From assembly GCA_963828705.1 (NCBI GenBank), contig CAWHGA010000032.1, positions 7,058 to 71,057 on the forward strand: 64,000 bases of DNA, in the 5' to 3' direction. The stretch's first letter is position 1. Each line of letters starts with the position of its first letter. This DNA comes from an uncultured delta proteobacterium (GTDB lineage: Bacteria; Desulfobacterota; Syntrophobacteria; Syntrophobacterales; Syntrophobacteraceae). Of the stretch, positions 1,522-46,197 are shown one piece after another. The translations under genes and the position numbers were made by a program. The notes under the pieces were generated by a model. It was not told the DNA's origin. It saw only the letters and a program-made list of their open reading frames with translations, and did no database searches.

Positions 1522-3991
1522 ATGTCAAAGTCGTTGTTGATTGTTGAATCCCCCACCAAAGCCAGGACTCTTTCGCGCTACCTGGGCAAGGATTTCCTGG
1601 TAAAAGCCTCGGTTGGCCATGTCAAAGATCTGCCTAAGAACAAGTTGGGAATTGATCTGGAAAACCAGTTTCAGCCTGAATACCAGGTGATTCGCGGCAA
1701 GAAGACGATTATCAAGGAACTCAGACAGGCGGTTGGCCAGGTGGATGCCGTCTACCTGGGTTCTGACCCGGACCGGGAAGGGGAGGCCATTGCCTGGCAT
1801 ATCTCCGAGGAGATTGAAGCTCAGGGCAAACCGGTCCATCGCGTGCTTTTCCATGAGCTGACCAAAAAGGCCATACAAGATGCCCTGGCCCATCCGCGGG
1901 ACCTGAACCGGTCGCTGTTTGAGGCGCAGCAGTCACGGCGCGTTTTAGACCGGCTGGTCGGTTACCTGATTTCACCGTTGCTCTGGAAAAAGGTAAAACC
2001 GGGGTTGAGTGCTGGGCGGGTGCAGTCGGTGGCTTTGCGCCTGATATGCGAGCGGGAACGGGAAATCCATCGATTTGAACCGGAAGAGTTTTGGAGCATC
2101 ACCACGCGGTTGAGTACGCGGTCTGTTGCGGATCCGTGCGAGGAAACTGGTCAACTGCCGCCGGACGCCTTCGATGCGCGTCTGTGGCGCTGCCAGAAGC
2201 ACAAATGCAAGGTGACCAATCAGGAGCAGGCGCAAAGCATCGTCGAAGCCTTGCGCTCCAGCGCCTTCCAGATAGCCAAGGTGGAGCGCAAGACCCAGCG
2301 CCGTCATCCAGTTCCGCCTTTCATCACCAGCACGCTGCAGCAAGAAGCCGCTCGCAGGCTACGCTATACCGCCAAACGGACCATGGCTATTGCCCAGCAG
2401 TTATACGAAGGGGTGGATCTCGGTAAAGAAGGAGCCGTGGGTTTGATCACCTATATGCGGACCGATTCCACCCGGCTCTCCGACGAGTCCATCGAGGCGG
2501 TGCGCGGCTACATCGGTGAGACTTGGGGCAAACAATATCTGCCTGGGAAGCCGAATTTTTTCAAGAACCGCAAAAATGTCCAGGATGCACACGAGGCCAT
2601 TCGCCCCACCGATGTGAACCGCAAACCCGAAGCTGTAGCGCGGTATCTGACCAAGGAGCAACTGGCGCTCTACACGCTCATCTGGAAACGCTTTGTGGCC
2701 TGCCAGATGGCGCCGGCTTTGATTGACCAAACCACGGTGGATGTGGTTGCCGGCGCCTACACCTTGCGAGCCACGGGTTCTGTGGTGCAGTTCCCCGGGT
2801 TTCTGGTGCTCTATGAAGAAACCCGCGAGAATGGTGAAAATGGTAAAGAAGCTGAAGGGTTTCTGCCCGACCTCAAGGAAGGGCAGGTCCTGACCTTGCT
2901 CGGTATTGTTCCCAAACAGCATTTCACCCAACCCCCGGCACGCTTCAGCGAAGCCAGTCTCATCAAGGAATTGGAAGAGCGCGGCATTGGCCGGCCCAGT
3001 ACCTACGCTTCCATTCTTTCCACCATCGTCGATAAGGAATATGTCACTCAGGACAAGCAGCGCCTGGGTCCCACCGAATTGGGTTTCATCATCAACGATC
3101 TGCTGGTGGATCACTTTCCCAATATCGTCAACGCTGAGTTCACCGCCAAGATGGAAGAGAGCCTGGATGGTATCGAGGTGGGTCAGCAATCCTATCTGCA
3201 GCTTCTGGAGGAGTTCTATCAGCAGTTTGCCGTGACCCTCGAAGCGGCCAAGGTAAACATGCGAAACATCAAGAGCGTGGGACTGGCGACCGATCTGGAC
3301 TGCCCCAAGTGTCAGCGTCAGCTGCACGTCCGCTGGAGTCGCAATGGGCCATTTGTCTCCTGTTCCGCCTATCCAGAATGTGATTTTGCTTCTGACTATG
3401 AGCGCGATGACAAGGGGCAAATCCGCTTGTTGAGAACCTCTGTCGAAGCCGAAGAGTGCGACAAATGCGGTCGCGCCATGGTGCTGAAGCGTGGCCGCTA
3501 CGGGTCCTTTTTGGCCTGCAGTGGTTATCCCGACTGCAAGAATACCCGTCCGCTGCCGGGTACAGAAGCCAAACCCGCGGGCGGTGCATCACCGCAGACG
3601 ACGGATCAGACCTGTGATAAGTGCGGGGGGCGGTTTCTTGTCAAACAAAGCCGTTTTGGCATTCCCTTCCTGGCCTGTGAGAAATATCCGAAATTGTAAG
3701 AACACCCGGCCGATTACTACCGGTGTTCCGTGCCCGACCAAAGACTGCGATGGCGAATTGATCGAGCGGGCGACCAAGAAGGGTCGCCGCTTTTTCGGCT
3801 GCGGCCGCTATCCGACATGCCGCACCGCGTTCTGGGATCAGCCCGTGCGGGAATCGTGCCCGCAGTGCGGATCGCCGGCGATGCTGCAGAAATTCAGCAA
3901 GCGAAGTGGTCCGAAACTGGTTTGTCCGAATCCGGACTGCAAATACCAGCAGGCCATGGAACAACCGCCTGACGCAGCCCCGACTGAGTAA
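1522..3991 (+). CDS. topA: DNA topoisomerase I; reading frame broken once (+1) at the AAA run 3691-3693
   Basis: ORF 1522..3699 starts with a Toprim motif (LLIVESPTKARTL), carries the type IA core and C4 zinc ribbons, and ends ...ACEKYPKL*. The next frame (ORF 3491..3991) continues NCKNTRPITTG..., mirroring the preceding ribbon ACSGYPDCKNTRP. Removing one A restores EKYPNCKNTRP. Confidence 0.9.
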
Positions 3992-12417: not shown

Positions 12418-13111
12418 ATGAGTAACGCCGGAAAATTCTGCGGATGCCTGATGAATGCGGAACCGCAGCACCTGCTGACATTCCTGCAGGATCCCGAAGT
12501 GGACCTGCTGGAATGGCGTCTGGACGCTTTTATCGCCCATCAGGGCTGGTCCAGGACCCGAGAGATGTTGGCCCTGCTCGGTTCGGATCGGCGCCGACCG
12601 ATACTGGTCACCAACCGGCCCGAGCGCCAAGGGGGCATGTTTGTCGGTTCCGAGACCGAACGATTGGCCGTCCTGGCGGAAGCCGTGGCGGCCGGTGCCG
12701 ACTGGGTGGACCTGGAAGATGACGTGGACACGCCTGTTCGTCGGCAGGTTCCACCAACTGGGTGCCAGAGTGCTGGTCTCTCACCATGATTTCTCTCAGA
12801 CGCCGGGACTCGGAGAACTGCAAGCCATCGCCCGAGAATTGGTGGTCGATGCCGACTGCATCAAGATCGTCACTTTCGCCAATAACCCCGAGGATTGCCT
12901 GCGGGTGTTGCAGTTGATCCCGTGGGGGCGGGAAACGCTTGGGGCGGATGTCATCGCCTTTTGCATGGGGGCCGCTGGCCGCTGGAGCCGGGTGGTGAGC
13001 TTGCTGCTCGGCAGTCCCTGGACTTATGTGAGCCTGCAGGCCGGACTGGAAGCGGCACCAGGGCAATACTCCGTCACCGAAATCCGGACTCTTCTGGAGA
13101 TGCTCGCATGA
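12418..13111 (+). CDS. aroD: 3-dehydroquinate dehydratase type I; frame broken once (+1) near 12727-12737
   Basis: ORF 12418..12789 (...AGADWVDLEDDVD...) and ORF 12641..13111 (...LFVGRFHQLGARVLVSHHDFSQTP...IKIVTFA...) together form one AroD-like protein. The stop overlaps the aroE start (ATGA). Confidence 0.8.
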
Positions 13112-13929
13112 TGCGTGTGGTGCAAAGCGATTTGTTTGCCGTCATCGGCCACCCGGTGGCCCATTCCCTGAGCCCGGTTATGATGAATGCCGCTTTTGCC
13201 GTTCTGGATCTGCCCGCTCATTATCTGGCGTTGGAGGTCGATGAACTGGCGTCGGCCCTGCGGCTGCTGGCCGATATCGGTGTGCGCGGCCTAAGCGTCA
13301 CCATCCCTCACAAGGAAATCGCCTGTCAGCAAGCGCTGAAACTGGATGACACGGCCCGGGCCATCGGTGCCGTTAACACCCTGCGGTGCGTGAATGATCC
13401 CGTCGGCTGGGAAGGGATCAATACCGATTGGCTGGGGGCGGTGCGAGCCCTTCAGCAGGTGACATCCCTTCCCGGCAAACGAGCCCTGGTGATCGGCGCC
13501 GGTGGTTCGGCGCGCGCCGTGGTCTACGGCCTCAAGCGCGAAGGAGCGGCGGTGAGCGTCACCAATCGCACGCCGGAACGCGGCGAATCACTGGCCGCCG
13601 CTTTCCAAGCCGAGTTCGTGTCCCTGGCTGAAGTCCCTCGGCAGCGTTTCGATATCCTCGTGCAATGCACCTCGGTGGGTCTGACCGGGGGAGCGATTTC
13701 CGAGGTGTTACCGCCATCGGTCTTCCATCCCGAAATGGTGGTCATGGATCTGGTCTATCGACCGCTGTGGACCCCCTTTCTGCTGGCGGCCCGGGGCGCC
13801 GGTTGCGTCACCGTTTCCGGCCTCGATATGCTGCTGTTACAGGGTGCGGCGCAGTTCGAATGGTGGTTGCAACGGCCGGCGCCCATAGCATCAATGAAAG
13901 ATGCCCTGTTGCAAAAGTTGGGGCAGTGA
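13108..13929 (+). CDS. aroE: Shikimate 5-dehydrogenase
   Basis: Motifs FAVIGHPVAHSLSPVMMNAAF, LSVTIPHK, GAVNTL, NTDWLG and VIGAGGSARAVVYGL. Confidence 0.9.
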   Translation: MMRVVQSDLFAVIGHPVAHSLSPVMMNAAFAVLDLPAHYLALEVDELASALRLLADIGVRGLSVTIPHKEIACQQALKLDDTARAIGAVNTLRCVNDPVGWEGINTDWLGAVRALQQVTSLPGKRALVIGAGGSARAVVYGLKREGAAVSVTNRTPERGESLAAAFQAEFVSLAEVPRQRFDILVQCTSVGLTGGAISEVLPPSVFHPEMVVMDLVYRPLWTPFLLAARGAGCVTVSGLDMLLLQGAAQFEWWLQRPAPIASMKDALLQKLGQ

Positions 13930-16973: not shown

Positions 16974-18489
16974 ATGAACAAGGAAGAACCATTGCGGCGA
17001 AAGCTCTCACGCCCTTACGCCTCATGGATTTTCACCCAAACAGGCTGGTGGCTGCTGCCGGTGCTGCTTCTGGCGCCTTTGTTTCTGGCTGATGCCGCGC
17101 CAGTCGATCAACCGGGCGGCGATTGGGCCAAGCGCCTTCAGCCGCTGCAACACGCCGCTCGTCAGGTGGCGATTCAGGTGGTCTCCCTTCCGGACCGGCG
17201 CCTGGTTTATGCGCATCAGGCCAACCGGCGCCTGATGCCGGCTTCTGTGGTCAAGATTCTCGTCAGTTATGCGGCATTGAAGGAATTGGGCTCGTATCAT
17301 CATTTCACCACCGAGGTCTGGAGCCGGCAGGTGGTGCGCGATGGTGTCCTGGCTGGCGATATCTGGATAAAGGGCAGCGGCGATCCCTTTCTGGTGCCGG
17401 AGAAGCTCTATCTGCTTGGGCAAAAGATCAGAGAGGCCGGAATTCATCGCATCGATGGCGGGATCGGGGTCGACAACGGCTATCTCCGCGCCTCTGTGGA
17501 AAAGATCTGCCTGGATGGCCAGTGCGATCGTGCCTACAATCCGGTGATCACAGCGACCACCCTCGATTTTAATACACTCACCTTGCAGCTTCGCCCCTCA
17601 AGCCGTCCTGGCGTGCCCGTGACGGTGGAGGTCTTTCCGCACGGCGACTACGCCGTGGTGGACAACCAAGTCGGAAGGGGCGATGCCCAGGCGGGTGAAA
17701 GCGGGATTCAGGTGCATTCGGCCGGAGTGACCGCAGATGGCCGTGAACGTTACCGACTCACCGGGAGTCTTGCCGCCAAGTCTGGCTGAAGCCATCGAAG
17801 TGCGGGTGAATGTGAACGACCCGGTGAGCTTCTTCGCGCGCTCCCTCAAGTGCCTGCTGGGCGAGATCGGGGTCGAAGTGCGAGGTGGAATCCTGCCTGC
17901 CGGCTCGGTGCCGAGTGGCGCGCGCAAATTGACCGAATACACCTCCCCACCTCTGAAAGACATCCTGTACGGCCTCAATCGTTACAGCAACAATTTCATG
18001 GCGGAGCTGCTGCTGCGGGTGCTGGGTGCGGAAATCAAGGGATTGCCCGGCAGTGCCGAAAAAGGCCTGGAAGTGTTGGGCGAGACGCTCGCTGCCCTCG
18101 GCGTGCCCGGTACAGAACTGGAACTGGACGGTGGCTCGGGGTTGAGTCGCCGCTGCCGGGTGAGCGCTCAGGCTCTGTGTTCGGTGTTGGTGGCCGCTTA
18201 CCATGATCCGGAAATTGGGCCGGAGTTCATGGCCTCTCTGGCTACGGGCGGGGAAGAGGGGACCCTGCGGCGCCGTGGCAAACGCTTGACCAATCCGGCC
18301 TCGATTCGAGGCAAAACCGGCTCGCTCAGTGACGTGATAGGATTCGCCGGTTATGTTAGCGCTCCCGGCGGCGGGACCCATGCCGTTGTCATCCTGCTCA
18401 ACGAGGTTCATAAGCCGGCCGAAGCCAAAGCGGCCATTGACCGTTTCCTGTCATGGTTGGCTGGGATTCGCAGTTCTGGAGAGCAGTGA
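16974..18489 (+). CDS. dacB: D-alanyl-D-alanine carboxypeptidase/endopeptidase PBP4 (peptidase S13); frame broken once (+1) near 17780-17788
   Basis: ORF 16974..17789 carries a signal sequence and the SxxK motif (PASVVKI). ORF 17737..18489 carries YSNNFMAE (SxN) and RGKTGSL (KTG). The two join at ...RYRLTGSLAAKS / AEAIEVRVNVNDP. Confidence 0.8.
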
Positions 18490-27692: not shown

Positions 27693-28315
27693 TGACACTC
27701 GCGACGGTGTCGGCAACCACGACAGCCGGCTTGCGCCGGGAAATCATCTTCACCGGTTTTGGCGGGCAGGGCATTGTGCTGGCCGGGCGCATTGTGGGCG
27801 AAGCCGCCAGCCTGGGTGATCACCGGGAAAGTACTCTGACTCAGTCCTATGGCCCGGAAGCCCGCGGCGGTGCCTGCAGTGCTCATGTGATCATAGCCGA
27901 CGGCACTATCCACTACCCCTATGTGCGCCGGCCCGACATCCTGGTGTGCATGTCCCAGGGGGGCTACGACAAATTCGGTGACCTGCTTAAGGACAACGGC
28001 ATTCTCCTCACCGATGAAGACCTGGTAGCGTCGGTGAACCCTTCGGCAGGCACTCAGTTCTTTCCGATTCCCGCAACCCGTATGGCTGAGGAACAGGGCC
28101 GCAAAATGATGGCCAACATCGTCATGGTGGGGTTCTTTACTGCGGTTACCGGCGTCCTGTCCATCGAATCGGCACGCGCAGCAGTGGCCGCGGCGGTGCC
28201 CAAGAATACCATCGACATGAATCTGAACGCTTTCACCAAGGGCCACGACTACGGGCTGGCTGTTCTCAAGGGGCGGATGAAGAAAGCGGAAGGCAAAAAA
28301 GGAGCCCGCGGATGA
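27689..28315 (+). CDS. 2-oxoacid:ferredoxin oxidoreductase gamma subunit (KorC-like)
   Basis: Motifs GFGGQGIVLAGRIVGEAA and SYGPEARGGA. The start overlaps the korB-like stop. Confidence 0.9.
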   Translation: MMTLATVSATTTAGLRREIIFTGFGGQGIVLAGRIVGEAASLGDHRESTLTQSYGPEARGGACSAHVIIADGTIHYPYVRRPDILVCMSQGGYDKFGDLLKDNGILLTDEDLVASVNPSAGTQFFPIPATRMAEEQGRKMMANIVMVGFFTAVTGVLSIESARAAVAAAVPKNTIDMNLNAFTKGHDYGLAVLKGRMKKAEGKKGARG

Positions 28316-31300
28316 AGACGCCCAAGGAACGCCTCTATCGAGTGTTGGTGCTGGGTGCCACCCCGGCTGGTATCGCTGCCACCAACAAGCTGGGGGAACT
28401 TGGCATCCCGGTGACGCTGGTCGATCCCGAAGCCGATCTCAATGCCAAACTGGCGCGTGAGGAATGGCGCCTGAGTTCGGGTGTGACACTGAACTATGCA
28501 CTGCGGCCGGGGTTGCTCCGAATCCTGCGCAACCGCAGCATCCGCACGGTGATGCCCGGTGAGCTGCGTTCCCTGAAGCACAGCACCCAGGGTTTTGCCG
28601 CCCGTCTCAAAGTCCCGCCCGGTTATGTGGACCCCGAACGCTGCACCCTCTGCGGTCGTTGCCAGACCGTTTGCCCGGCGATTACCGCCGATGGCTCTCG
28701 GGCGATCCATCTGAACGGACGCCAGGCTCTGCCCGGTCGGGCGATTCTGGACAAGCGCCAGCAGCCGCTCTGTCAGGCCAACTGCCCCCTGGGTGTCAAC
28801 GCTCAGGCCTATCTGGCCCTGAGCCGCCAGGGTTTATTTGCCGAAGCTCTGGAAGTGGTCCGCCGCGACAACGTGCTGCCGGGGATCTGCGGGCGAATCT
28901 GCACCCATCCGTGTGAAACCGCCTGCCGCCGTGGGGAGCTCGATGAGCCCCTGGCGATTCGGGATATCAAGCGGTTTTTAGCCGATTTTGAATTGACTCA
29001 AGAGAGCCCGGCTGAAAGCGCCGGTACCGGGCAGCGACCTCTGACCGGAACGGTCCCTTCCCCATTGGGGCGCCGTGCCGTCGAGAAGGCCGCCGTCGCC
29101 GTGATCGGATCTGGTCCGGCCGGATTGGCTGCGGCGTCTGATCTGGCGCGGTTCGGTTACGATGTGACGGTCATCGAGAAGGAAGCCGAGCTGGGCGGGA
29201 TGCTTCGCTACGGCATTGGTCCCTACCGGCTGCCGCGCGCTATCCTGGATCGCGAAATCGCTGCCATCGGCGCTTTGGGCGTGGCTTTTCAGACTTCGGT
29301 GTCGTTGGACCTGCAAAATGACCTGGCTGAACTTGGCAAACGTTATGCCGCCATCGTTGTCGCCACCGGCACCTGGAAAGACCGGCGCCTTGGAGTCCCC
29401 GGCGAAGACCTTGACGGTGTCGAAGGCGGTGTCGCTTTTCTTGCTCGCCTGTATCGCGGGGAAGTACTTGAACTCAAGGAGAAGGTCGCGGTCATCGGCG
29501 ACGGCAATGCCGCCTATGATTTGGCGCGGGCGCTGGCGAGGATTGGCGCTGACGTAACCATCGTCTCTTGGTTTCCGGAAGAACTGATTCCGGCTGATCC
29601 TGAAGAAGTGGTGGCGGCCCGCGAGGAAGGCATTGCGCTTATCGACAGTGCCCAGGTGGTCGGTTTTGTCGGTGACGGTGGGCGGCTGAGCCGCTTGCGG
29701 TGCGTCCCGACCCAACCCGGGAAGCCGGATGCCCAGGGGATTCCCTGGCCCGTGCCAGTGGCCGGTGGTGAACCCTTCGAACTTGGCCTTCGATCGGGCT
29801 TTCGTGGCCATCGGCCAGGTGGGCAATGCCGCGGTCCTCGCCTCCCCGGATGGACTACAGGTTACCCCGCGCGGTTTTATCGCCGTCGATGACGGCCTGC
29901 GCACCGGGGTTTCCGGCGTCTATGCCGCCGGGGATGCGGTTACCGGGCCGTCTTCGGTGGTGTGGGCCATGGCTTCCGGACGGCAGGCGGCTGGTGCCGT
30001 GCATCGCCAGCTGAGCGGCGAAGACCTGCCGCCGGGTTTGACCAGCCGCCCCGGCGAGCGCGATTTTTGCGCTATTCCGGCCGATCTGCCGTCGGTCGCG
30101 CGCACACACATGCCGGAACGCCAGGCAGCAACCCGCTGCGCGGGTTTCGCTGAAGTGGCCCTGGGGTTGACCGAAACCCAGGTGTTGGCGGAAAGTGCCC
30201 GTTGCCTGCAGTGTGGGGTTTGTTCCGAGTGCCTCCAGTGCCTGGATGCCTGTGGAACGGTGGCGGCCATCCGGCACGACGATCGTGAGACGGAACTGGT
30301 TGAACAGGCGGGGGTGGTGATCGTCGCCGATCCGGCGCTGACCCTGGGGATCAGGGGCGATGACGTGATCCGCGCCTACAGCACCAAGGCCGCCCGAGAC
30401 GACGCCCATGCCATGATGCTGCGGGGGTTTGCCGCCGCGGCCGAAGCCATGCACTTGCTGGGCGGCAGTTCCCAGCGGCTTAAGGGGCACGGACTGGTTT
30501 TCGCCCCGCCCGACCCGCAGCTCACCGATGAACTCCGCCTGGGGGTGTTTGTCTGTCGCTGCAATGACTCGTTTGGCTGGGCTGGGGAACTGGATGATTA
30601 CCTGAGCGGGCTTCGCGCCCGTCCCGAAGTCCTGGTGGCCGACACCGTGATGTCTGCCTGCACACCCGACGGCACTGCCGCCATGGTCCGTACCATCCGC
30701 GAAAAGAACCTGAGCCGGGTGGTTTTGGCGTCCTGCGTGTGTTGCCCGCTGGATTTTGTCTGCACGGCCTGCACTGATCAGCGCAGTCGGCTAAAAGACG
30801 CACTCTTCAACGGCACCGGCATCCCTCGCGCCATGGTGGAAACCTGCAACGTGCGAGGTGAAGTGCTGCGCTGGCTGGAGGAGGATGAAGCGTTTGCGGT
30901 GGAACGTTTCACCGGGCTGCTGGACCGTTCCATCAACCGTGCGCAGTCGCTCAAGACGCTGCCGGCCCCGGCGCGGCCCTATAACTTTGCCACTGCGGTC
31001 ATCGGGGTTTCGGAAGCGGCCGTCAAGAGCGCTCTGACACTGGCCGATGCCGGTATGGAGGTGTTCTTGTTCGGCACCCCCGACCAGCCTCTGGAAGAGA
31101 CCCTGGTTCATGCCAACATCCGCAGCTTTGACGGGTCGTCGGTCAAGGGGCTGCGTGGTACGGTGGGAAACTTCCAGGTGGTGGTGGCAATGGACGGGGT
31201 TGAGCAGACCATTCAGGTGGGGGCGGTGATCCTCGGCGAACAGTCCCGGCGCCGCATCCCGTATTTGCCCCAAGCCGGCCTGCCGCCGCGTCTGGTGGAA

Positions 31301-31717
31301 TCCTCCATGCAACAGAAGGGAGTGACCGGAATTCCGTTTTTCTATCCGGGTGCTACTTCCATTCCCGGATTGTTCCTGGCCAACCCGCCGGGTATCCAGG
31401 TGTCGCAACGGGTCAAGGGGGCGGCGGCGGCGATTCTGGTGGCCACCGTCATGCCGCGGAAGCCTCGGCAGAATAAGGGCTATACCGTGGTGGTCAGCGA
31501 GGCGCAATGCCGGGGCTGTGGCCGGTGCATCCAGGCCTGTCCCTACCAGGCCGTGTTCTTCCGCCGCAACGCCGTGGGCGGTATGACTTCAGTGGTGGAT
31601 GAAGCGCTCTGCAAAGGCTGTGGCAACTGTATATCGGTTTGTCCGAGCAATGCGGCGGATAGTCCCTATCGCGATCAGAACTACCTGGAACAAATGATCG
31701 AAGAGATACTCGCTTAG
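28312..31717 (+). CDS. Large multidomain flavo-iron-sulfur oxidoreductase (GltD-like NAD(P)H module fused to an HdrA-like/ferredoxin module; HdrL-type); frame broken once (+1) near 29783-29790
   Basis: Rossmann motif VLVLGATPAGIAA. GltD-like motifs CQANCPLGVNAQAY, CTHPCETACRRG, VAVIGSGPAGLAAASDL and GVYAAGDAV. The C-terminus has CRGCGRCIQACP and CKGCGNCISVCP. ORFs 28312..29892 and 29729..31717 join at ...GEPFEL/AFDRAFVAIGQ. Confidence 0.75.
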
Positions 31718-31789
31718 CGTGAGGGCGTTCAGCGCGGCCGCAGCTTGTAGCTTGCAGCAAACAAATGATTGAAGAGAACCTGGTGTAGC

Positions 31790-32338
31790 ATGGACAACCT
31801 CAAGATCGTCGTATTCTTGTGCAACTGGGGGCCGCACGCCGCCTTCCAGACGCTTCAGGACACCTGTTGTGCCATCCCGCGGGAAGTGCGAATGGTACGC
31901 ATCCCCTGCACGGGGCGGATCAGCAAGTCGCTGCTGTTCAAGGCTTTTGAAATGGGGGCCGACGGCGTCGCTCTGATCGGCTGCCAAGAAGGCACCTGCC
32001 GCTACGGCAGCGGCACCGACAACGCCACTCACAACGTCGAACCCACGCGCGGCATTCTGCAGATGCTGGGGATGGGTAAGGAGCGGCTGCGTTGGGTAAC
32101 GTTCCTGCCTGAAGACACTGCCGGGCTGCTGAGCTTTTTGCAGGATTTTCGAAAAGATGTGCAGACTCTGGGGAAGAACCCGGCGGTGCCGGCGATACGG
32201 ACAGCGACAGCGGGGAGCGAATCGCCGCAGGAGATACCCCGCCTTGGCGATGGACCCGACGGGGACGGCCGCCATGGCATTTCACCGTCCCGTCGCCCCC
32301 ACGCCCTCGCAGCCTGGCGCCCTCGCGGCTCTCGATGA
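31790..32338 (+). CDS. MvhD-like (methyl-viologen-reducing hydrogenase delta subunit family) protein
   Basis: VVFLCNWGPH...IPCTGRIS...GADGVALIGCQEGTCRY. The 3' end overlaps the next ORF, so the end is uncertain. Confidence 0.75.
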   Translation: MDNLKIVVFLCNWGPHAAFQTLQDTCCAIPREVRMVRIPCTGRISKSLLFKAFEMGADGVALIGCQEGTCRYGSGTDNATHNVEPTRGILQMLGMGKERLRWVTFLPEDTAGLLSFLQDFRKDVQTLGKNPAVPAIRTATAGSESPQEIPRLGDGPDGDGRHGISPSRRPHALAAWRPRGSR

Positions 32339-33497
32339 GCCCACCCGGAGACTTTTGAGCGCCCACGACATTTACGCTTGCCAGGACTGCGGCAAATGTT
32401 CTTCGGCCTGTCCCATCACCCTGGTGGGCAAGCCGTTCTCGCCCCGGGCTATGGCCGGGAGGATTATTGCCGGCGGAGTGTCCGATCCGTTGGTGGATGC
32501 CGACATCTGGTCGTGCCTTACGTGCGGTCTGTGCCATGATCGTTGTCCATCGGCGATCGATTTCCCGGAGTTTATCCGGGAACTGCGGGCGTTGGAATGT
32601 TCCGGCGGGAGCAGTGCGCATGAAGCCCACGGCGGCTTCTTCCAATCGCTGATGCGGACCATGACTTCGCCGGATCTTCCCGTCCGGCATTGGGACTGGC
32701 TTCCCGAGGATGTCCGCACCGATCCGCAAAGCAAGATGCTGTTCTTTGGTGGCTGCGCCCCCTACTTTGACATCTTTTTTCGACAGCACCTCGGGGTCCA
32801 GACCAGTGATATCCTGGTGGACAGTCTGCGGTTGCTCAACTTTTTCGACATCACACCGGCGCTGCTTCCCGACGAACGCTGCTGCGGCCACGACCTGCTG
32901 TGGTCCGGGGACCGGGAGAATTTCCGGAAGCTGGCGCGACTCAACGTCGAAGCCATTGCCGATCTGGGCGTGGAACAAGTGGTCACCGCCTGCCCCGAAT
33001 GTTTCCGAACCCTCGGGCACGACTACCGGGAGCTGGGTCTGGAATTGCCTTTCGGCGTGACCCATCTGTATGAACTCCTGGAACGCGAAATCGACAAAGG
33101 CGCCATTGCCTTTGAGCGTCTCGATCGGCGCCTCACCTTCCAGGACCCGTGCCGCTTGAGTCGTGTGGGGAAGACGGCGGGGGGCGGTGCCGAACTGCCG
33201 CGAAAGCTCCTCCAGCGGCTACAGCCCAAGGCCTATCGGGAAATGGCCGACAGCGGCGTGTCGGCCCTGTGCTGTGGCAATTGCGCCTGGACCGGCTGCG
33301 ATGCCTACAGCAAGGCGCTCCAGGTCAAACGGCTGCGACAGGCACGGGAAACCGGCAGTGACCTCTTGGTGACCGCCTGCCCTAAATGCCAGATCCATCT
33401 GCGTTGTGCCATGGAAGATCCCTTCTGCGGGGACGAGATTCGAATGGAGATGCAGGACCTCGCTACGGTCCTGGCCCGAACGATTCACTGGAAGTGA
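32274..33497 (+). CDS. HdrC/HdrB-like fusion (2x[4Fe-4S] and two CCG cysteine-rich domains)
   Basis: CQDCGKCSSACP and CLTCGLCHDRCP are HdrC-like. ERCCGHD and ALCCGNCAW are CCG motifs and HdrB-like. The start (32250 or 32274) is uncertain. Confidence 0.8.
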   Translation: MAFHRPVAPTPSQPGALAALDEPTRRLLSAHDIYACQDCGKCSSACPITLVGKPFSPRAMAGRIIAGGVSDPLVDADIWSCLTCGLCHDRCPSAIDFPEFIRELRALECSGGSSAHEAHGGFFQSLMRTMTSPDLPVRHWDWLPEDVRTDPQSKMLFFGGCAPYFDIFFRQHLGVQTSDILVDSLRLLNFFDITPALLPDERCCGHDLLWSGDRENFRKLARLNVEAIADLGVEQVVTACPECFRTLGHDYRELGLELPFGVTHLYELLEREIDKGAIAFERLDRRLTFQDPCRLSRVGKTAGGGAELPRKLLQRLQPKAYREMADSGVSALCCGNCAWTGCDAYSKALQVKRLRQARETGSDLLVTACPKCQIHLRCAMEDPFCGDEIRMEMQDLATVLARTIHWK

Positions 33498-42583: not shown

Positions 42584-43215
42584 GATAAGAGGGGCTTTTG
42601 GGGCACCCTCCTAGAGTTTTTGCCGCGTGAAGCCGACGCGAGAAGCCGAGTTGAACTGAACCGCTGAGCGGTGGGAAGACACTGGGATTGGGGATATGGA
42701 GAATCAGCAGCCGACTCGCGCTTACTCGGCCACATTGTGCATGGTTATCGCCATCGGCGCAAGGATGGAGTGGGGCTGGGGGTGAGAGCTGGGGTCTGCT
42801 GACCGGTGGCTGCCTCCAAACCCGGTCATATTGAGCAAAAGTGCCTCTCGTAGAACCGTAAAACTGAACATGACTTGGGAGGGTAAGGGGTTGGTATGGT
42901 ATTGGGGACAGCGTGTTGTGTTGCGGTTCTCCCAGAGGGGGATTCAGTCGGGCCGGCTCGGAACCAAGCCTATGATTCGGATATGTTGCCCCCTCAGTCC
43001 GCGAAGTGGAAAACGCCATATGGGAGAGATCATCTGATTTTATTTAGAAAGAAAGATATAGTGTGGTTCGGTTTCCGGCTGGACTCTGCAATCTATAGAT
43101 CGGTAGGGGGCCTCTTTTCGAACTCGCCCTACCGGTAAGCTTTCATGCTGTATTGTAGATACACTCCTTGAGCGGGTATTGATTTTTTCCGTCCATCAAA
43201 AGTCAGCAACAGACT

Positions 43216-43243
43216 TGAAACAAAACTGATTATTGTTCGTCTA
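43216..43243 (+). promoter_or_regulatory. ECF-type promoter motif upstream of the ECF sigma gene (possible autoregulation)
   Basis: TGAAAC (43216-43221), 16 nt, CGTCTA (43238-43243). Caveat: the -10 lies only about 15 nt from the ATG, so the SD (43246-43253) would sit at the very 5' end of the transcript. Confidence 0.35.
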
Positions 43244-43257
43244 ATGGGAGGAGTCCG

Positions 43258-43827
43258 ATGGAAAATCCGGTGAACGGGGTCCAGGAAGAGCCCGGGCTTG
43301 CCCTGCCCCGCTCCGACGATCACGAAGCCTTCACCCTGTTCTACCGGCAGACAGCCGCCGGCATTTATGCCTACCTGTACCGTCTCTGTGGTTGCCCGCA
43401 CTTGGCCGAAGACCTTTTGCAGGAAACCTTTCTGGCGGTCTTCAGGGGTTTGGCTGATTTCAAGGCCCGGTCGTCGCCGCGGACATGGTTGTACGCAATT
43501 GCCACCAATAAGTTCCGCGACCATTGCCGAAACAGATGGGGGAAGGTCGAATTGGATTCAGAATCGCTCGAAGCGCTGCCTTCTTCCGGGCCCGTGCCCC
43601 TGGAAGAGGTAATACAAAGGGAAGAATCCCGGCGGATACACGAGGCAATTCTGGCCCTTCCTCCGGAGCTGAGGACCGCCTTGCTGCTGGTTCGCTTCGA
43701 GGAGCTGAAATACCTGGAGGCGGCGCAGATTCTCGGGACCACACTGTCAACGGTCCGCATGCGGGTCCATCGTGCCCATTGCATATTGGCGCAAACGCTG
43801 GGGGAGACAAGCCATGGACAGAGATGA
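43258..43827 (+). CDS. ECF (group 4) sigma-70 family RNA polymerase sigma factor
   Basis: Region 2 contains AEDLLQETFLAVFRGLADF and RTWLYAIATNKFRDHCR. Region 4 contains LPPELRTALLLVRFEELKYLEAAQILGTTLSTVRMRVHRA. Confidence 0.9.
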   Translation: MENPVNGVQEEPGLALPRSDDHEAFTLFYRQTAAGIYAYLYRLCGCPHLAEDLLQETFLAVFRGLADFKARSSPRTWLYAIATNKFRDHCRNRWGKVELDSESLEALPSSGPVPLEEVIQREESRRIHEAILALPPELRTALLLVRFEELKYLEAAQILGTTLSTVRMRVHRAHCILAQTLGETSHGQR

Positions 43828-44122
43828 GATCTTGCACCTGGTGACCGATGCACTCTGCGGCGAACTGGACGGGGAAGGAGAGGCACAAATGCAGGCCGCC
43901 CTGGCGGCCGACCCGGCCCTTGCCGCAGAAGCCAGGCGACTGGAGAGGATCTGGCAACGGCTCGGGAAGGTCTTGGACGAAGAACAACAGGAGCAGGCCG
44001 TTCTTACCCGCGTTTTCGATCGGATCGTCGAGCAGCACCACGCTGAACTCTCGGATGAAGAACTTGAGCAGGCCGCCGGCGGTATCTCCTCGATGCCGGA
44101 TGGCGAGCAGATAAAAAGATGA
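43814..44122 (+). CDS. Small soluble protein in the anti-sigma position, ending in a double-glycine (NHLP/Nif11-type) leader motif followed by a 12-aa tail
   Basis: The gene overlaps the sigma gene by 14 nt. The protein is MDRDEILHLVTDALCGELDGEGEAQMQAALAADPALAAEARRLERIW...AELSDEELEQAAGG|ISSMPDGEQIKR. Its C-terminal motif nearly matches the precursor's ELSEEQLSQAAGG. No hydrophobic segment is present. Confidence 0.6.
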   Translation: MDRDEILHLVTDALCGELDGEGEAQMQAALAADPALAAEARRLERIWQRLGKVLDEEQQEQAVLTRVFDRIVEQHHAELSDEELEQAAGGISSMPDGEQIKR

Positions 44123-45294
44123 ATCCCTCTGCGCCACTGCGGGAGAACCTTGAACGGCGCGAGCGCTTTCGGCGCAAGGTGCTTGTTTCCCTGGGCGCCA
44201 CAGGCAGCGAAATCGACAAACTGCTCGGGTATGGTTGCAGCCGTTTCGTCGGCAGGGAAGCTCCTTCCCTCCCCCTCGCCGATGAGCCCTTTGTCCGCGC
44301 GTGGCATGACTACGCGGAAGAGGCGGCCGGGCGCGGCGTTTTTCCGGTCCTGCGGGAAAAGCTGGTTCAGCTTCGCTTCCCGATCCGTGAAGGGATCAGT
44401 CGCGAGGATGGGTACCGGGCCGCAACCCTCAGGGGAAATCTCCCCGATCCCGAACAGACTGCCCTGGAACTCGCCGATCCCGAGGGGCTGAAGCTGTTCC
44501 TCCACGAAACCCCGGCCGGGACGATTCCGGTGCTTACGGTCCGGGACAGGAGTGATTTTACCGCCCTTTTATGTGCTCTGTCCATGCGCAACGAGCCGGT
44601 GCCGGTGCCGGAATCGAGGGGGGCGGCCATGATCTCCGGTCTGAACAACTGGGACCGGATCGCACGCCATCGTAGGGCCTGGGAGGCCGCCCACCCCTCC
44701 GAAGCAGCCGCGGACCAATGGCCGGCGGAATTCTCCCTTCTCATTGCGCACAGGGAACTCTACCAGGACCGGCTCATCATCCTGAACGAGGGCGGATACA
44801 GCGGCGTGCCGGCGGAAATGGTCGGCATGACGGATAAAGTCTGGCGCAGGGCGTCGCTCGTTATCCGCCTGGAGCATGAATGCGTCCACTATTTCACGAA
44901 GCGGGTGTTCGGCTCCATGAAAGATGCCATCCACGATGAATTCATTGCCGACTATGCAGGCATCGCCGCGGCCGCCGGCTCCTTTCGAGCCGACTGGTTC
45001 CTGCTTTTCATGGGCCTGGAAGACTTCCCGAACTACCGCCAGGGTGGCAGGCTGCAGAACTACCTGGGCAATCCGCAGCCCGACGCCGGGGTGTTCACCA
45101 TACTAAAGCGGCAGGTCAAGGAGGCTGCGGAGAATCTCGAACGCTTTGAGACAAGAATGCGGGCGGCCGAAGGCGCCGCCCGCCCCCGGCGCACCGAAAT
45201 GCTTTTGGCCCTGGCTGCCTTGCACATGGAAGAGTTGGCCTCGGCCGACGCGGGGAGGTTTATTGAAGAAGAGCTAATGGCTGTCGGCCACTGA
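44119..45294 (+). CDS. Hypothetical 391-aa protein with an HExxH motif (putative metallopeptidase)
   Basis: IRLEHECVHYF (HExxH) followed by HDEFIADYAG. The start is ATGA-coupled to the preceding ORF. No family recognised. Confidence 0.5.
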   Translation: MNPSAPLRENLERRERFRRKVLVSLGATGSEIDKLLGYGCSRFVGREAPSLPLADEPFVRAWHDYAEEAAGRGVFPVLREKLVQLRFPIREGISREDGYRAATLRGNLPDPEQTALELADPEGLKLFLHETPAGTIPVLTVRDRSDFTALLCALSMRNEPVPVPESRGAAMISGLNNWDRIARHRRAWEAAHPSEAAADQWPAEFSLLIAHRELYQDRLIILNEGGYSGVPAEMVGMTDKVWRRASLVIRLEHECVHYFTKRVFGSMKDAIHDEFIADYAGIAAAAGSFRADWFLLFMGLEDFPNYRQGGRLQNYLGNPQPDAGVFTILKRQVKEAAENLERFETRMRAAEGAARPRRTEMLLALAALHMEELASADAGRFIEEELMAVGH

Positions 45295-45415
45295 AGGGCA
45301 ATGAACCTTGAAACAAACCGGCTTTTTGTTCGTCCAAGAGTAAAGAGGCGGCGGTATCCCGGTACGTGCACGGGCGGGTGAGCAGACGTTTCAGTGACCC
45401 GAGAGAAGCATGACG

Positions 45416-45439
45416 GGAACACTAGGGCCGGCTGCCGTT
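45416..45439 (+). promoter_or_regulatory. ECF-type promoter motif upstream of the RiPP precursor
   Basis: GGAAC (45416-45420), 15 nt, CGTT (45436-45439), i.e. GGAAC-N16-GTT. It lies about 150 nt upstream of the precursor ATG. Confidence 0.45.
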
Positions 45440-45590
45440 CTCACACCCCGAGCGCGATTCGCTCCTTTGGCGGATGGGGGATACGTTATGAGTAGGCCGT
45501 ACTCGGGCGCCCGCGGTTGGGTGGCTCGCGACTGTAGGCGAAACGGCGTTGTTGGGAAGAACCTTACATTTTCACAAAAGGAGAAACAGC

Positions 45591-45959
45591 ATGAACGAGG
45601 AAGAGAAAGCGAAAGAACACGCGGAAGAGCAGGCCAAGAAGATGGAGCAGCTTATCGCCAAGACATGGGCGGACGAAGGGTTCAAGCAGAGGCTCATGTC
45701 TAACCCGGCGGCAGTGCTCAAGGAGGCCGGTGTGGAGGTACCCGAAAACGTCGAAGTGCGAGCGGTGGAGGACACCGACAAGGTATTTCACCTGGTACTG
45801 CCGCCGAAGCCCTCGGACGATGAACTTTCGGAGGAGCAGCTAAGCCAGGCGGCAGGCGGGCATCATCATGGGTGTGGTTGTGGGCATGGTTGTGGGTGTG
45901 GGGGTGGGTGTGGGTGTGTCGTCTTTTTTCCCGCGTGTCGTCGGCGTTGCTGTTGCTGA
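45591..45959 (+). CDS. NHLP (nitrile-hydratase-like leader peptide) family RiPP precursor; core HHHGCGCGHGCGCGGGCGCVVFFPACRRRCCC
   Basis: Leader ...LIAKTWADEGFKQRLMSNPAAVLKEAGVEVPENVEVRAVEDTDKVFHLVLPPKP...ELSEEQLSQAAGG is followed by a 32-aa core with 10 Cys and 4 His. SD AAAGGAG precedes ATG 45591. Confidence 0.85.
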   Translation: MNEEEKAKEHAEEQAKKMEQLIAKTWADEGFKQRLMSNPAAVLKEAGVEVPENVEVRAVEDTDKVFHLVLPPKPSDDELSEEQLSQAAGGHHHGCGCGHGCGCGGGCGCVVFFPACRRRCCC

Positions 45960-46197
45960 TGGCGCAGAGAGGCGAGCACTCACGATGGGGCTATCCCTTG
46001 CGCGATTTGCGATCCGGAAGTGTTGACATCTGACGCTGGCCGGGGGCCTCGGGGTAGCCTCGGCTCAGCGGAAGGGGGAGTGCGACGATCTGCAATTGTC
46101 TCAGGACAAAAACCAGATAACGCCAGGCACCTCCATTATGGGACTCCTGCCCATCGACTCCGGCCAAAGCCAGCAGGCCGGGGAGTCATGTACTACC

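What the first reader, a model, noticed from the sequence alone, without database searches (positions are those of the whole stretch)
45591..45959. Precursor core is an alternating Gly-Cys tract capped by His3 and a CCC tail
Seen: after the AAGG cleavage motif the core reads HHHGCGCGHGCGCGGGCGCVVFFPACRRRCCC, which is 10 Cys and 4 His in 32 residues.

Established: YcaO/SagB pairs convert Cys to thiazoline and then thiazole.

Inference: full processing would give a Gly-thiazole polymer, i.e. regularly spaced 2-aminomethyl-thiazole units, with an N-terminal His cluster. That is a plausible metal-chelating or nucleic-acid/ribosome-binding scaffold. I do not recognise this core from characterised TOMMs.
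Basis: partly seen in the sequence, partly recalled or inferred. Interest (0 to 1): 0.75.

Follow-up and report, generated by a model that had tools for sequence, protein, structure and literature searches.

The report
Cysteine-glycine-rich precursor of a thiazole peptide
This small gene encodes the precursor of a secreted peptide whose ten cysteines are probably turned into thiazole rings by neighbouring enzymes; it is an uncharacterised member of a class of bacterial peptide natural products known since 2010.

Summary
ORF 45591-45959 (+) encodes 122 aa: a 90-residue nitrile-hydratase-like leader (NHLP, TIGR03793, 91.5 bits) ending in AAGG, then HHHGCGCGHGCGCGGGCGCVVFFPACRRRCCC (10 Cys, 4 His, 32 aa). 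No other six-frame segment of the window exceeds 6 Cys per 32 aa.

Downstream on the same strand lie a fused heterocyclase (full-length homolog of TruD/LynD/MusD, E 1e-189), a CyaGox/ThcOx-type FMN oxidase (E 1e-82) and the NHLP-specific exporter with a C39 peptidase. The prediction of Cys-to-thiazole maturation, cleavage after GG and export therefore rests on strong homology.

Caveat: in this assembly the heterocyclase, oxidase and ABC2 genes each carry a 1-nt frameshift. Similar frameshifts split topA, PBP4 and an HdrA-like gene elsewhere, so they are probably assembly errors.

At least nine metagenomic relatives share the leader and have Gly/Cys/Arg/His-rich cores ending in CC, CCC or CRC. 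The His3 cap is not conserved. Cys/Gly repeat cores are an established theme in this class (microcin B17, heterocycloanthracin).

Verdict: a new, uncharacterised member of the NHLP-type linear azole peptides. Metal or nucleic-acid binding remains untested speculation.

Side finding: an ECF sigma, an anti-sigma carrying a double-glycine leader motif, and DUF7005 form a module that appears to control the operon.

The parts
43216..43241 (+). ECF-type promoter-like motif TGAAACAAA-N9-TGTTCGTC, 17 nt upstream of the sigma gene
   Evidence: One of only two matches in the 64-kb window, even allowing 3 mismatches (0.14 expected). Conserved in L001.
43258..43827 (+). ECF sigma factor (189 aa)
   Evidence: Sigma70_r2 and r4_2; TIGR02937. 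Conserved upstream of the precursor in L001, L002 and the P0004 contig.
43814..44122 (+). 102-aa soluble anti-sigma-like protein whose C-terminus carries a double-glycine leader motif (HHAELSDEELEQAAGG|ISSMPDGEQIKR)
   Evidence: NF010501 anti-sigmaE, residues 5-76, E 7e-8. Weak Nif11-leader and CTB-leader hits at residues 74-92. ELSD..L..AAGG is invariant or near-invariant in 14 homologs.
44119..45294 (+). DUF7005 protein (391 aa) with an invariant HExxH...DE...D signature
   Evidence: PF22541, 457 bits. Invariant H253, E254, H257, D273, E274, D278 in 30 sequences. AF2 pLDDT 92.9 with no PDB fold match. Adjacent to NHLP/Nif11-type exporters in 5 distant genomes.
45309..45334 (+). Second copy of the ECF-type promoter-like motif, 257 nt upstream of the precursor ATG
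   Evidence: Exact match to the pattern. Exact match at the equivalent place in L001. Invariant block in alignment A3.
45468..45590 (+). Conserved 5' untranslated region with the Shine-Dalgarno sequence AAGGAG
   Evidence: About 88% identical to L001, while the preceding 130 nt are not conserved. No Rfam family.
45591..45860 (+). NHLP leader (residues 1-90): no Cys, L79-x4-L84 recognition motif, ends in AAGG
   Evidence: TIGR03793, 91.5 bits. Aligns to the MprE7 leader NMR structure 8TB1, residues 12-90, E 5.5e-18. L(X)4L motif as in PatE/MprE7 (PMC12455567).
45861..45959 (+). Core peptide HHHGCGCGHGCGCGGGCGCVVFFPACRRRCCC plus stop codon
   Evidence: Family alignment A1.
45867..45918 (+). Degenerate tandem DNA repeat (6-nt and 18-nt periods) encoding (HGCGCG)x~3
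   Evidence: TRF.
46198..46219 (+). Stem-loop GGAGCCGAC-GATG-GTCGGCTCC in the precursor-heterocyclase spacer (possible processing or attenuation element)
   Evidence: The stem is conserved and the loop differs in L001.
46343..48591 (+). Fused E1-like/RRE + YcaO heterocyclase (about 750 aa), interrupted here by a 1-nt deletion between 47458 and 47459
   Evidence: TIGR03882 and TIGR03604. Colinear with the 749-aa L001 protein in two frames. The repaired protein matches TruD 4bs9 (E 3.5e-189, residues 7-750), LynD and MusD.
48626..50045 (+). SagB/ThcOx-type FMN azoline oxidase (about 472 aa), interrupted by a 1-nt insertion within 49034-49037
   Evidence: The repaired protein has HTH_57 + ThcOx + Nitroreductase and TIGR03605. 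It matches CyaGox 5lq4, E 1.4e-82, over its full length.
50263..50832 (+). cNMP-binding 'bacteriocin-type transport-associated' protein (probable start at 50293)
   Evidence: PF00027; TIGR03896. The 179-aa homolog in L001 aligns from 50293.
51058..51708 (+). Short (216 aa) NHLP-system HlyD-like secretion protein
   Evidence: TIGR03794, 213 bits against a cut-off of 156. Same length in L001 and L002.
51705..53897 (+). NHLP exporter ABC1 with an N-terminal C39 peptidase domain (catalytic Cys27 and His100 present)
   Evidence: TIGR03796, 1112 bits. Peptidase_C39, 1.8e-37. Sequence inspected.
53955..56850 (+). NHLP exporter ABC2 (about 964 aa with an N-terminal extension of about 278 aa), interrupted by a 1-nt insertion at 55515
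   Evidence: The repaired protein scores 954 bits against TIGR03797 over the full length 1-686/686. Frames established.

Best explanation
The ORF is the single precursor of an NHLP-type (proteusin-like) linear azole-containing peptide.

Inferred steps:
1. Residues 1-90 form a structured nitrile-hydratase-like leader. Its L79-x4-L84 motif docks onto the RRE of the fused TruD/LynD-type heterocyclase encoded next door.
2. That enzyme uses ATP to cyclodehydrate core cysteines to thiazolines.
3. The CyaGox/ThcOx-type FMN oxidase aromatises them to thiazoles.
4. The product would be a cationic peptide of Gly-thiazole units (2-aminomethylthiazole-4-carbonyl) with a C-terminal run of up to three contiguous thiazoles. 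Maximum 10 azoles: 3238.198 to 3037.936 Da.
5. The C39 peptidase domain of ABC1 cleaves after G89-G90. ABC1, ABC2 and the short HlyD-like protein export the core.
6. Transcription is probably driven by the adjacent ECF sigma factor, through a promoter motif shared by the sigma gene and the precursor.

The most likely role is a secreted antagonistic peptide (bacteriocin); the target is unknown.

Shown here: sequence, family memberships, synteny and a conserved core composition. Inferred only: every chemical step, the extent of cyclisation and the biological activity.
For: - Exact translation.
- NHLP leader above the curated cut-off, aligning to the solved MprE7 leader up to the GG. MprE leaders are processed by the YcaO MprC and the oxidase MprD to thiazoles, -20 Da each, and depend on the L(X)4L motif (PMC12455567).
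- Heterocyclase: full-length match to TruD, LynD and MusD at E about 1e-189, with the C-terminal NPNPMFF tail like TruD's NPTPMPF.
- Oxidase: full-length match to CyaGox with the WKY motif.
- Exporter genes all reach NCBIfam 'NHLP bacteriocin' equivalog cut-offs once repaired. The C39 catalytic Cys and His are present.
- The same gene order occurs in independent metagenome contigs at about 80% nucleotide identity. The core trio of precursor, fused CD and B also occurs in a Holophaga MAG.
- Nine close relatives keep the leader while the core varies in length and sequence. Composition is conserved: C 30%, G 29%, R 12%, net charge +2 to +8, and a CC/CCC/CRC terminus. This hypervariable pattern is described for TOMM/NHLP cores (PMC2887384).
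- The ECF-type motif is found only upstream of the sigma gene and of the precursor.
Against: - No chemical or expression data exist.
- In this assembly the heterocyclase, the oxidase and ABC2 are each split by a 1-nt frameshift. If these are real, this organism cannot make the product.
- No immunity gene is recognisable.
- Full conversion of 10 Cys, especially the contiguous CCC, is unproven. Per PMC12455567, MprC installs only 2-6 azolines per substrate.
- The bacteriocin role is by analogy only.
Confidence: 0.75

Rival explanations
1. The mature product is primarily a metal-binding peptide (metallophore, metal buffer or redox peptide). It would use His, thiazole or thiazoline nitrogens and/or unmodified thiols. 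For example, the free N-terminal His-His-His left after GG cleavage forms an ATCUN-type Cu(II)/Ni(II) site.
For: The core has 10 Cys and 4 His in 32 residues. After cleavage His would sit at position 3 of a free N-terminus (read from the sequence; ATCUN chemistry is from my own knowledge). Some relatives are also His-rich (P0008, P0125). Control by an ECF sigma would fit a stress response.
Against: - His at position 3 occurs in none of the 12 aligned relatives.
- Cys spacing is not conserved (CxC, CxxC, CxxxC, CPPC), and core length varies from 22 to 42 aa. That is the opposite of a conserved metal site.
- Thiazole formation removes the thiolates.
- The dedicated C39/ABC export system and the hypervariable core are bacteriocin-like (PMC2887384).
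- No metal-uptake or receptor genes lie in the cluster.
Confidence: 0.1
2. The locus is a decaying, non-functional gene cluster in this organism. The precursor is intact, but the heterocyclase, the oxidase and one exporter subunit are pseudogenes, so no thiazole peptide is made.
For: There are three 1-nt frameshifts relative to L001 (47458/9, 49034-37, 55515), none in a long homopolymer.
Against: - After single-base repair, all three proteins are full length with no further lesions. They score as well as intact homologs.
- Comparable frame splits occur outside the cluster, in topA (normally essential; my own knowledge), PBP4 and an HdrA-like gene.
- Overall that is about one per 10 kb across the window, which points to indel errors in the assembly.
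Confidence: 0.13
3. The Cys/Gly tract is a chance translation of a G/T-rich microsatellite, and the ORF is not a real RiPP precursor.
For: The core DNA is a degenerate hexamer repeat.
Against: It is in frame with a high-scoring NHLP leader and has a good RBS. The tail motif and the composition are conserved in relatives with different DNA. It has perfect synteny with maturation and export genes.
Confidence: 0.01

Closest known systems
NHLP-type TOMM clusters (Haft, Basu & Mitchell 2010, PMC2887384); experimentally, the MprE/MprC/MprD system (PMC12455567)
   Same: - Leader of about 80-90 aa related to the nitrile hydratase alpha subunit but lacking the CxxCSC site.
- GG cleavage site, followed by a hypervariable core rich in heterocyclisable residues.
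- Fused docking/cyclodehydratase plus FMN oxidase.
- TIGR03794/03796/03797 exporter and a cNMP-binding accessory protein.
- L(X)4L leader motif.
   Different: - The core is an extreme Gly/Cys/Arg/His low-complexity tract with a CC/CCC terminus, and no product from such a core has been characterised.
- There is a single precursor gene rather than the ten MprE paralogs.
- The HlyD-like protein is short (216 aa).
- An ECF sigma / anti-sigma / DUF7005 module lies upstream.
Cyanobactin pathway enzymes (PatD/TruD/LynD/MusD heterocyclases; PatG-oxidase/ThcOx/CyaGox)
   Same: The heterocyclase and the oxidase are full-length homologs (E 1e-189 and 1e-82). The leader carries a PatE-like ELSEExL motif.
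   Different: There are no PatA/PatG subtilisin-like proteases or macrocyclase, no PatE-type recognition sequences and no prenyltransferase. Leader removal is by a C39 ABC transporter, so a linear product is expected, not an N-to-C macrocycle.
Microcin B17
   Same: Gly-rich core in which Gly-Cys gives 2-aminomethylthiazole units, and adjacent heterocyclisable residues give 4,2-linked bis-azoles that are critical for activity (PMC6722960).
   Different: Microcin B17 has a 26-aa leader removed by TldD/E, a separate McbBCD synthetase, mixed oxazoles and thiazoles (4+4), and McbEFG export and immunity. The precursor is unrelated in sequence. Here there is no Ser or Thr in the core, and the thiazole density would be far higher.
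Heterocycloanthracin/sonorensin family and other Cys-repeat TOMM precursors (Haft 2009, PMC2674419)
   Same: Low-complexity Cys/Gly repeat core that varies between strains by insertion or deletion of repeat units. That paper already notes Cys-Xaa dipeptide repeats and Cys-Arg-Gly repeats in other predicted TOMM precursors.
   Different: The leader family is different: TIGR03601 is not among the families listed for the precursor. The period is mainly 2 (Gly-Cys) rather than 3 (Cys-Gly-Gly). The enzymes are of a different type and the host phyla differ.
NHLP-Burk (BMA_0021/0022) peptides
   Same: [quoted passage not shown] There is a weak TIGR03795 hit (E 0.007), and precomputed 'faint' PF27793 hits are on record for the relatives.
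   Different: NHLP-Burk peptides occur as tandem or fused pairs with a 15-aa leader insert. The score here is below that family's cut-off.

Membership tests
NHLP leader peptide family RiPP precursor (TIGR03793) | Profile score above the curated cut-off | tested here: met
   91.5 bits against a cut-off of 50.9, residues 14-90 matching profile positions 2-77 of 77.
NHLP leader peptide family RiPP precursor (TIGR03793) | Similar to the NHase alpha subunit but lacking the CxxCSC metal site | tested here: met
   NHase_alpha hit at residues 34-86. PDB NHase hits fall in two stretches flanking the deleted active-site region. The leader has 0 Cys.
NHLP leader peptide family RiPP precursor (TIGR03793) | Gly-Gly motif at the end of homology, followed by a hypervariable core | tested here: met
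   G89 and G90 are at least 90% conserved, and conservation stops there in A1.
NHLP leader peptide family RiPP precursor (TIGR03793) | Clusters with the NHLP-specific ABC/HlyD export system | tested here: met
   TIGR03794 at 213 bits and TIGR03796 at 1112 bits. TIGR03797 at 954 bits after repairing one frameshift.
TOMM / linear azole-containing peptide (LAP) | YcaO cyclodehydratase with an E1-like/RRE partner next to the precursor | tested here: met
   TIGR03882 plus TIGR03604. The fused protein matches TruD/LynD over its full length. The gene carries a 1-nt frameshift in this assembly.
TOMM / linear azole-containing peptide (LAP) | FMN-dependent SagB-type dehydrogenase | tested here: met
   TIGR03605 at 174 bits. 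Full-length match to CyaGox 5lq4. The gene carries a 1-nt frameshift in this assembly.
TOMM / linear azole-containing peptide (LAP) | Azol(in)e heterocycles actually present in the product | not testable with these tools
   Needs mass spectrometry of co-expressed or native peptide.
TOMM / linear azole-containing peptide (LAP) | Linear product, with no macrocyclase | tested here: met
   No PatA/PatG-type protease or other cyclase is among the cluster ORFs in 43.2-56.9 kb.
Cyanobactin | PatA and PatG subtilisin-like proteases, and a PatE-type precursor with recognition sequences | tested here: not met
   No such domains in the cluster. The precursor is NHLP-type. Only the heterocyclase and the oxidase are cyanobactin-like.
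Heterocycloanthracin/sonorensin (TIGR03601) | Family-specific leader profile | tested here: not met
   TIGR03601 is not among the NCBIfam families listed for the precursor at E <= 0.01. Only the repeat character of the core resembles this family.
Microcin B17 type | Separate McbB/C/D synthetase, short leader, McbEFG | tested here: not met
   McbC is only a distant hit of the oxidase (E 4e-7). The architecture and the leader differ.
Proteusin in the strict sense (polytheonamide-like) | NHLP leader plus radical-SAM epimerase or methyltransferases | tested here: not met
   The NHLP leader is present, but no radical-SAM gene is in the cluster. It qualifies only under the broad usage 'any NHLP-leader RiPP'.

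The most novel reading that the evidence does not exclude
The cluster makes a fully cyclised, cationic oligo(Gly-thiazole) strand. It would carry about six regularly spaced 2-aminomethylthiazole units and be capped by a C-terminal Arg3-tris-thiazole (bleomycin-bithiazole-like) tail. This would be a LAP scaffold with no characterised counterpart. Its conserved features (polythiazole, Arg/His, CC/CCC terminus) would define a new mode of binding to a polyanionic target such as DNA, rRNA or a topoisomerase-DNA complex, or in this His3-capped variant, a metal-dependent activity.
Probability: 0.25. Interest if true: 0.55.

Novelty: new member of a known kind. Interest (0 to 1): 0.35.

Why it matters
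No natural product from a Gly/Cys-repeat NHLP core has been characterised. The family is small but recurrent: 16 of 199 parsed NHLP cores have at least 20% Cys and at least 20% Gly.

The precursor and two enzymes form a compact set, all close to well-behaved, structurally characterised cyanobactin enzymes. That makes it an easy heterologous-expression target, and it could yield a very thiazole-dense linear peptide with a bleomycin-like polythiazole tail.

This is incremental for RiPP biology. The class, the chemistry and the export logic have been known since 2010. The core composition is an extreme version of a familiar theme, not a new principle.

The more original leads lie in the neighbourhood. 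One is an anti-sigma factor carrying the same double-glycine leader motif as the precursor. The other is DUF7005, a widely conserved HExxH protein with no known fold. Both appear tied to NHLP/Nif11 export systems.

Tried and rejected
1. Other precursors. A phmmer search of the leader against all six-frame segments found only this gene.

2. Organism identity and named relatives. The single genome-contig scan with the family alignment returned only distant NHLP genes (at most 56% identity). The cores of the best 26 were read, and none is a Gly-Cys repeat. The window's own genome is not in that collection, and the taxon stays unknown. The Hdr/Mvh-like genes suggest an anaerobe; that reading is my inference.

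3. Truncated HlyD and cNMP genes. I first suspected truncation because of partial profile coverage. I rejected this because the L001 and L002 homologs have the same lengths.

4. Cluster-specific pseudogenisation. This was down-weighted after finding split topA, PBP4 and HdrA-like genes elsewhere.

5. Sigma-70 promoter and intrinsic terminator scan around the precursor. No promoter was found, and there is no terminator after the precursor. An ECF-type motif was found by comparison instead.

6. Rfam search of 43.0-46.4 kb. No family matched the conserved 5' UTR. A two-sequence RNAalifold is too thin to claim a structure.

7. DUF7005. There was no PDB sequence hit and no significant Foldseek hit despite a pLDDT 92.9 model, so its protease nature rests only on the invariant HExxH/DE motif.

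8. ATCUN/His3 metal-site idea. It is not conserved in relatives and is kept only as a minor rival.

9. Literature searches. I searched for characterised Gly-Cys-repeat NHLP products, for DUF7005 and for anti-sigma factors with double-glycine motifs. Nothing relevant appeared among the papers listed.
Full report
**1. Observation**

Window 45591-45959 (+) is an ATG-to-TGA ORF of 122 codons. An AAGGAG ribosome-binding site sits 7-8 nt upstream. A 90-residue N-terminal part ends in ...ELSEEQLSQAAGG. It is followed by HHHGCGCGHGCGCGGGCGCVVFFPACRRRCCC: 32 aa with 10 Cys, 4 His, 9 Gly and 3 Arg, and no Ser, Thr, Asp or Glu.

This is not chance:
- It is the only six-frame segment of the 64-kb window with 7 or more Cys in 30 aa.
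- The runner-up 32-aa windows have 6 Cys.
- Twenty shuffles of the window gave maxima of 5-8.
- The binomial tail is 3.6e-10 per window at the local Cys frequency.

At the DNA level the tract is a degenerate tandem repeat at 45867-45918. The 6-nt period has 8.3 copies. The 18-nt unit CATGGGTGTGGGTGTGGG (HGCGCG) has 2.9 copies. The core of this particular gene therefore looks like a triplicated HGCGCG unit placed in front of a VVFFPACRRRCCC tail.

**2. What the gene is**

The N-terminal 90 residues are a nitrile-hydratase-like leader peptide:
- NCBIfam TIGR03793 scores 91.5 bits against a cut-off of 50.9, and Pfam NHase_alpha also hits.
- The leader aligns over residues 12-90, right up to the GG, with the NMR-solved MprE7 leader 8TB1 (E 5.5e-18). 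It also aligns with nitrile hydratase alpha subunits on either side of their deleted active-site region.
- The leader has no cysteine.
- It carries L79-S-E-E-Q-L84. This corresponds to the L(X)4L motif through which PatE binds the LynD RRE, and which MprE7 needs for processing by the YcaO MprC (PMC12455567).

**3. Neighbourhood**

All genes lie on the + strand:

| Coordinates | Gene |
|---|---|
| 43258-43827 | ECF sigma |
| 43814-44122 | 102-aa anti-sigma-like protein |
| 44119-45294 | DUF7005 |
| 45591-45959 | precursor |
| 46343-48591 | heterocyclase |
| 48626-50045 | oxidase |
| 50263-50832 | cNMP-binding 'bacteriocin transport-associated' protein |
| 51058-51708 | short HlyD-like protein |
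| 51705-53897 | ABC1 with C39 peptidase (TIGR03796, 1112 bits; catalytic Cys27 and His100 present) |
| 53955-56850 | ABC2 |

Flanking genes are unrelated to peptide biosynthesis: LexA and an S74-domain protein upstream, PsiE and a Na/H exchanger downstream.

**4. Comparison with relatives, and the frameshifts**

Two metagenome contigs (L001, 109 kb; L002) carry the same gene order at about 80% nucleotide identity over window 43131-56134. In them the heterocyclase is a single 749-aa fused protein, the oxidase is 473 aa and ABC2 is 964 aa.

In the window each of these three genes is split between two reading frames by a single-base indel:
- a deletion between 47458 and 47459;
- an insertion within 49034-49037;
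- an insertion at 55515.

After single-base repair all three are full length:
- The heterocyclase aligns end to end with TruD (4bs9, E 3.5e-189), LynD (4v1t) and MusD (7u58). This includes the C-terminal NPNPMFF, against TruD's NPTPMPF.
- The oxidase has the complete HTH_57 + ThcOx + nitroreductase architecture. It aligns over residues 1-470 with CyaGox (5lq4, E 1.4e-82), keeping the WKY motif.
- ABC2 scores 954 bits over the whole TIGR03797 model.

Equivalent frame splits occur elsewhere in the window:
- topoisomerase I (1522-3699 / 3491-3991);
- a PBP4-type carboxypeptidase (16974-17789 / 17737-18489);
- an HdrA-like oxidoreductase (28312-29892 / 29729-31717).

I therefore read the three cluster frameshifts as probable assembly indel errors rather than cluster decay. 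This cannot be proven without reads.

**5. The core family**

A search of 5.8 billion proteins returned no identical protein (best 85% identity over the leader; 70% over near-full length). It did return a tight group of metagenomic relatives, P0001-P0005 and P0007-P0009, with leaders 66-85% identical. Their cores are all Gly/Cys/Arg(/His)-rich. Examples:
- RCGCGCAGCGCRCGCGEGCSIGCLVIRPCC
- HCGGGHCGCGHGGCGGHHRCGCGGHRCGCGCGCGCVFIRPCC
- RCRCGSGPCGSGPCGRGPCGPPCDGSWGSYGCRRRCCC
- YWGCGCGGSYGSYGCYRRHCCC

Across the nine closest cores:
- the composition is C 30%, G 29%, R 12%, S 7%, P 6% and H 4%;
- net charge is +2 to +8;
- length is 22-42 aa;
- every core ends in CC, CCC or CRC.

The N-terminal His3 of the window peptide is unique to it. 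A profile search of 1.84 billion representatives found 8970 NHLP-like proteins. Among the 199 fetched sequences with a parsable core, 16 have at least 20% Cys and at least 20% Gly. These include long perfect repeats such as (CGGCGGR)n and (GCGRGCGGGCGC)n. A Holophaga MAG carries such a precursor next to a fused heterocyclase and an oxidase, but in a different export context.

So Gly/Cys-repeat NHLP cores are a recurrent, uncharacterised sub-theme. They appear to diversify by gain and loss of repeat units. Haft showed the same for Cys-Gly-Gly units in heterocycloanthracins. He also noted Cys-Xaa dipeptide and Cys-Arg-Gly repeats in other predicted thiazole bacteriocins (PMC2674419).

**6. Mechanism (inferred)**

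- The leader docks on the heterocyclase RRE.
- ATP-dependent cyclodehydration converts Cys to thiazoline.
- The FMN oxidase gives thiazoles.
- The C39 domain cleaves after GG, and ABC1/ABC2/HlyD-like export the core.

Each Gly-Cys would become a 2-aminomethylthiazole-4-carbonyl unit, as in microcin B17 (PMC6722960). CCC would become up to three directly linked thiazoles preceded by Arg3. MusD, one of the closest solved homologs, makes contiguous azoles (my own knowledge). The expected monoisotopic masses are 3238.198 Da unmodified and 3037.936 Da with ten thiazoles.

A hypervariable cationic core with a dedicated peptidase exporter is the bacteriocin pattern (PMC2887384). The target cannot be inferred. 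Metal binding is a minor rival, because neither the His cap nor any Cys spacing is conserved.

**7. Regulation (found while checking the surroundings)**

The motif TGAAACAAA-N9-TGTTCGTC has ECF-type -35 AAC and -10 CGT elements. It occurs exactly twice in the window: 17 nt upstream of the sigma gene and 257 nt upstream of the precursor. The chance expectation is 0.14 even with 3 mismatches allowed. The same two places carry it in L001. The ECF sigma therefore probably drives both its own operon and the precursor/maturation operon.

The 102-aa protein after the sigma gene matches anti-sigma N-terminal domains (E 7e-8). It ends in HHAELSDEELEQAAGG|ISSMPDGEQIKR, which is essentially the precursor's leader end and cleavage site. 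This motif is invariant or near-invariant in 14 homologs.

In Desulfocucumis palustris, an unrelated NHLP/radical-SAM cluster has the same sigma / small protein / DUF7005 arrangement. There the small protein ends in GELDRVAGG|INQHRDRPPEE, and the local precursor has DSVAGG. This suggests that the anti-sigma factor is recognised by the same peptidase/exporter or RRE as the precursor. That would be export-coupled control loosely analogous to FlgM; the analogy is my own and is untested.

DUF7005 has these properties:
- at least 46% identity across phyla among the 30 sequences aligned;
- invariant HExxH...DE...D;
- a confident AF2 model (pLDDT 92.9) with no PDB fold match;
- a position next to HlyD/C39-ABC/ABC2 exporters in five distant genomes, whatever the modification chemistry.

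**8. Comparison and verdict**

The locus meets every testable defining feature of an NHLP-type TOMM/LAP cluster (Haft 2010). Its enzymes are of the cyanobactin type, consistent with the grouping of NHLP and cyanobactin D proteins by Cox et al. (PMC4603692). It is not a cyanobactin, because it has no PatA/PatG. It is also not a heterocycloanthracin or a microcin B17-type system.

No characterised product with such a core was found in the literature searched. It is therefore a new, uncharacterised member of a known kind. The functional speculation is untested, and the 'unusual' composition is an extreme form of a familiar TOMM theme.

Interest is moderate to low for the core itself. The regulatory module is the more original lead.

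Noticed in passing
window 43814-44122 (+); also L001 8258-8566 and L083 7587-7973: A 102-aa soluble anti-sigma-like protein ends in a double-glycine leader motif (AELSDEELEQAAGG plus a 12-aa tail) almost identical to the precursor's cleavage region. The motif is invariant or near-invariant in 14 homologs. It recurs, matched to the local precursor's VAGG, in a Desulfocucumis NHLP/radical-SAM cluster. The anti-sigma may be a substrate or decoy of the C39 exporter or of the RRE (export-coupled sigma activation). No paper mentioning this appeared among the search results listed.
   Followed up: partly
window 43216-43241 and 45309-45334 (+); L001 7660-7685 and 9763-9788: The ECF-type promoter-like motif TGAAACAAA-N9-TGTTCGTC occurs exactly twice in 64 kb: upstream of the ECF sigma gene and upstream of the precursor. 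Both copies are conserved in a relative at about 80% nucleotide identity.
   Followed up: yes
window 44119-45294 (+): DUF7005 is highly conserved across phyla (at least 46% identity among the 30 sequences aligned). It has invariant H253-E-x-x-H257 and D273, E274, D278. Its AF2 model (pLDDT 92.9) has no significant PDB fold match. In 5 of 5 distant genomes checked it lies beside HlyD + C39-ABC + large ABC2 exporters of NHLP/Nif11 systems. It may be a new metallopeptidase family tied to these exporters, for example for leader or anti-sigma degradation.
   Followed up: partly
window 47458/9, 49034-49037, 55515; also 1522-3991, 16974-18489, 28312-31717, possibly 12641-13929: Single-base frameshifts split many genes across the window, roughly one per 10 kb. 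They include topA, a PBP4-type peptidase and an HdrA-like gene, as well as three genes of the peptide cluster. This most likely reflects indel errors in the assembly.
   Followed up: partly
window 45468-45590 (+): The last ~120 nt of the long (~255 nt) 5' UTR of the precursor are about 88% conserved with L001, whereas the preceding part is not. There is no Rfam match. The two-sequence consensus fold has only 2 compensatory pairs.
   Followed up: partly
window 46198-46219 (+): A 9-bp GC-rich stem-loop (GGAGCCGAC-GATG-GTCGGCTCC) without a T-run lies in the 380-nt spacer between the precursor and the heterocyclase. The stem is conserved and the loop differs in L001. It may be an mRNA processing, stability or attenuation element that sets the precursor:enzyme ratio.
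   Followed up: partly
window 53955-54790 (+), ABC2 residues 1-278: The ABC2 exporter subunit has an N-terminal extension of about 278 aa with no Pfam hit, preceding the TIGR03797 region. ABC2 homologs in other loci are also 900-990 aa, so the extension is conserved. Its function is unknown.
   Followed up: no
proteins P0006 and P0064-P0116 (representative-library hits): Many of the best NHLP hits contain two to four tandem NHLP leader domains in one polypeptide before a single core. Others have (Cys-Ser)n cores (P0135) or (HHCGGGGG)n cores (P0125).
   Followed up: no
window 28312-33497 (+): HdrA-like, MvhD/FlpD and HdrB/C-like (CCG, 4Fe-4S) genes sit in a row. By my reading this suggests the host is an anaerobe with flavin-based electron bifurcation. 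Its taxon could not be determined.
   Followed up: no
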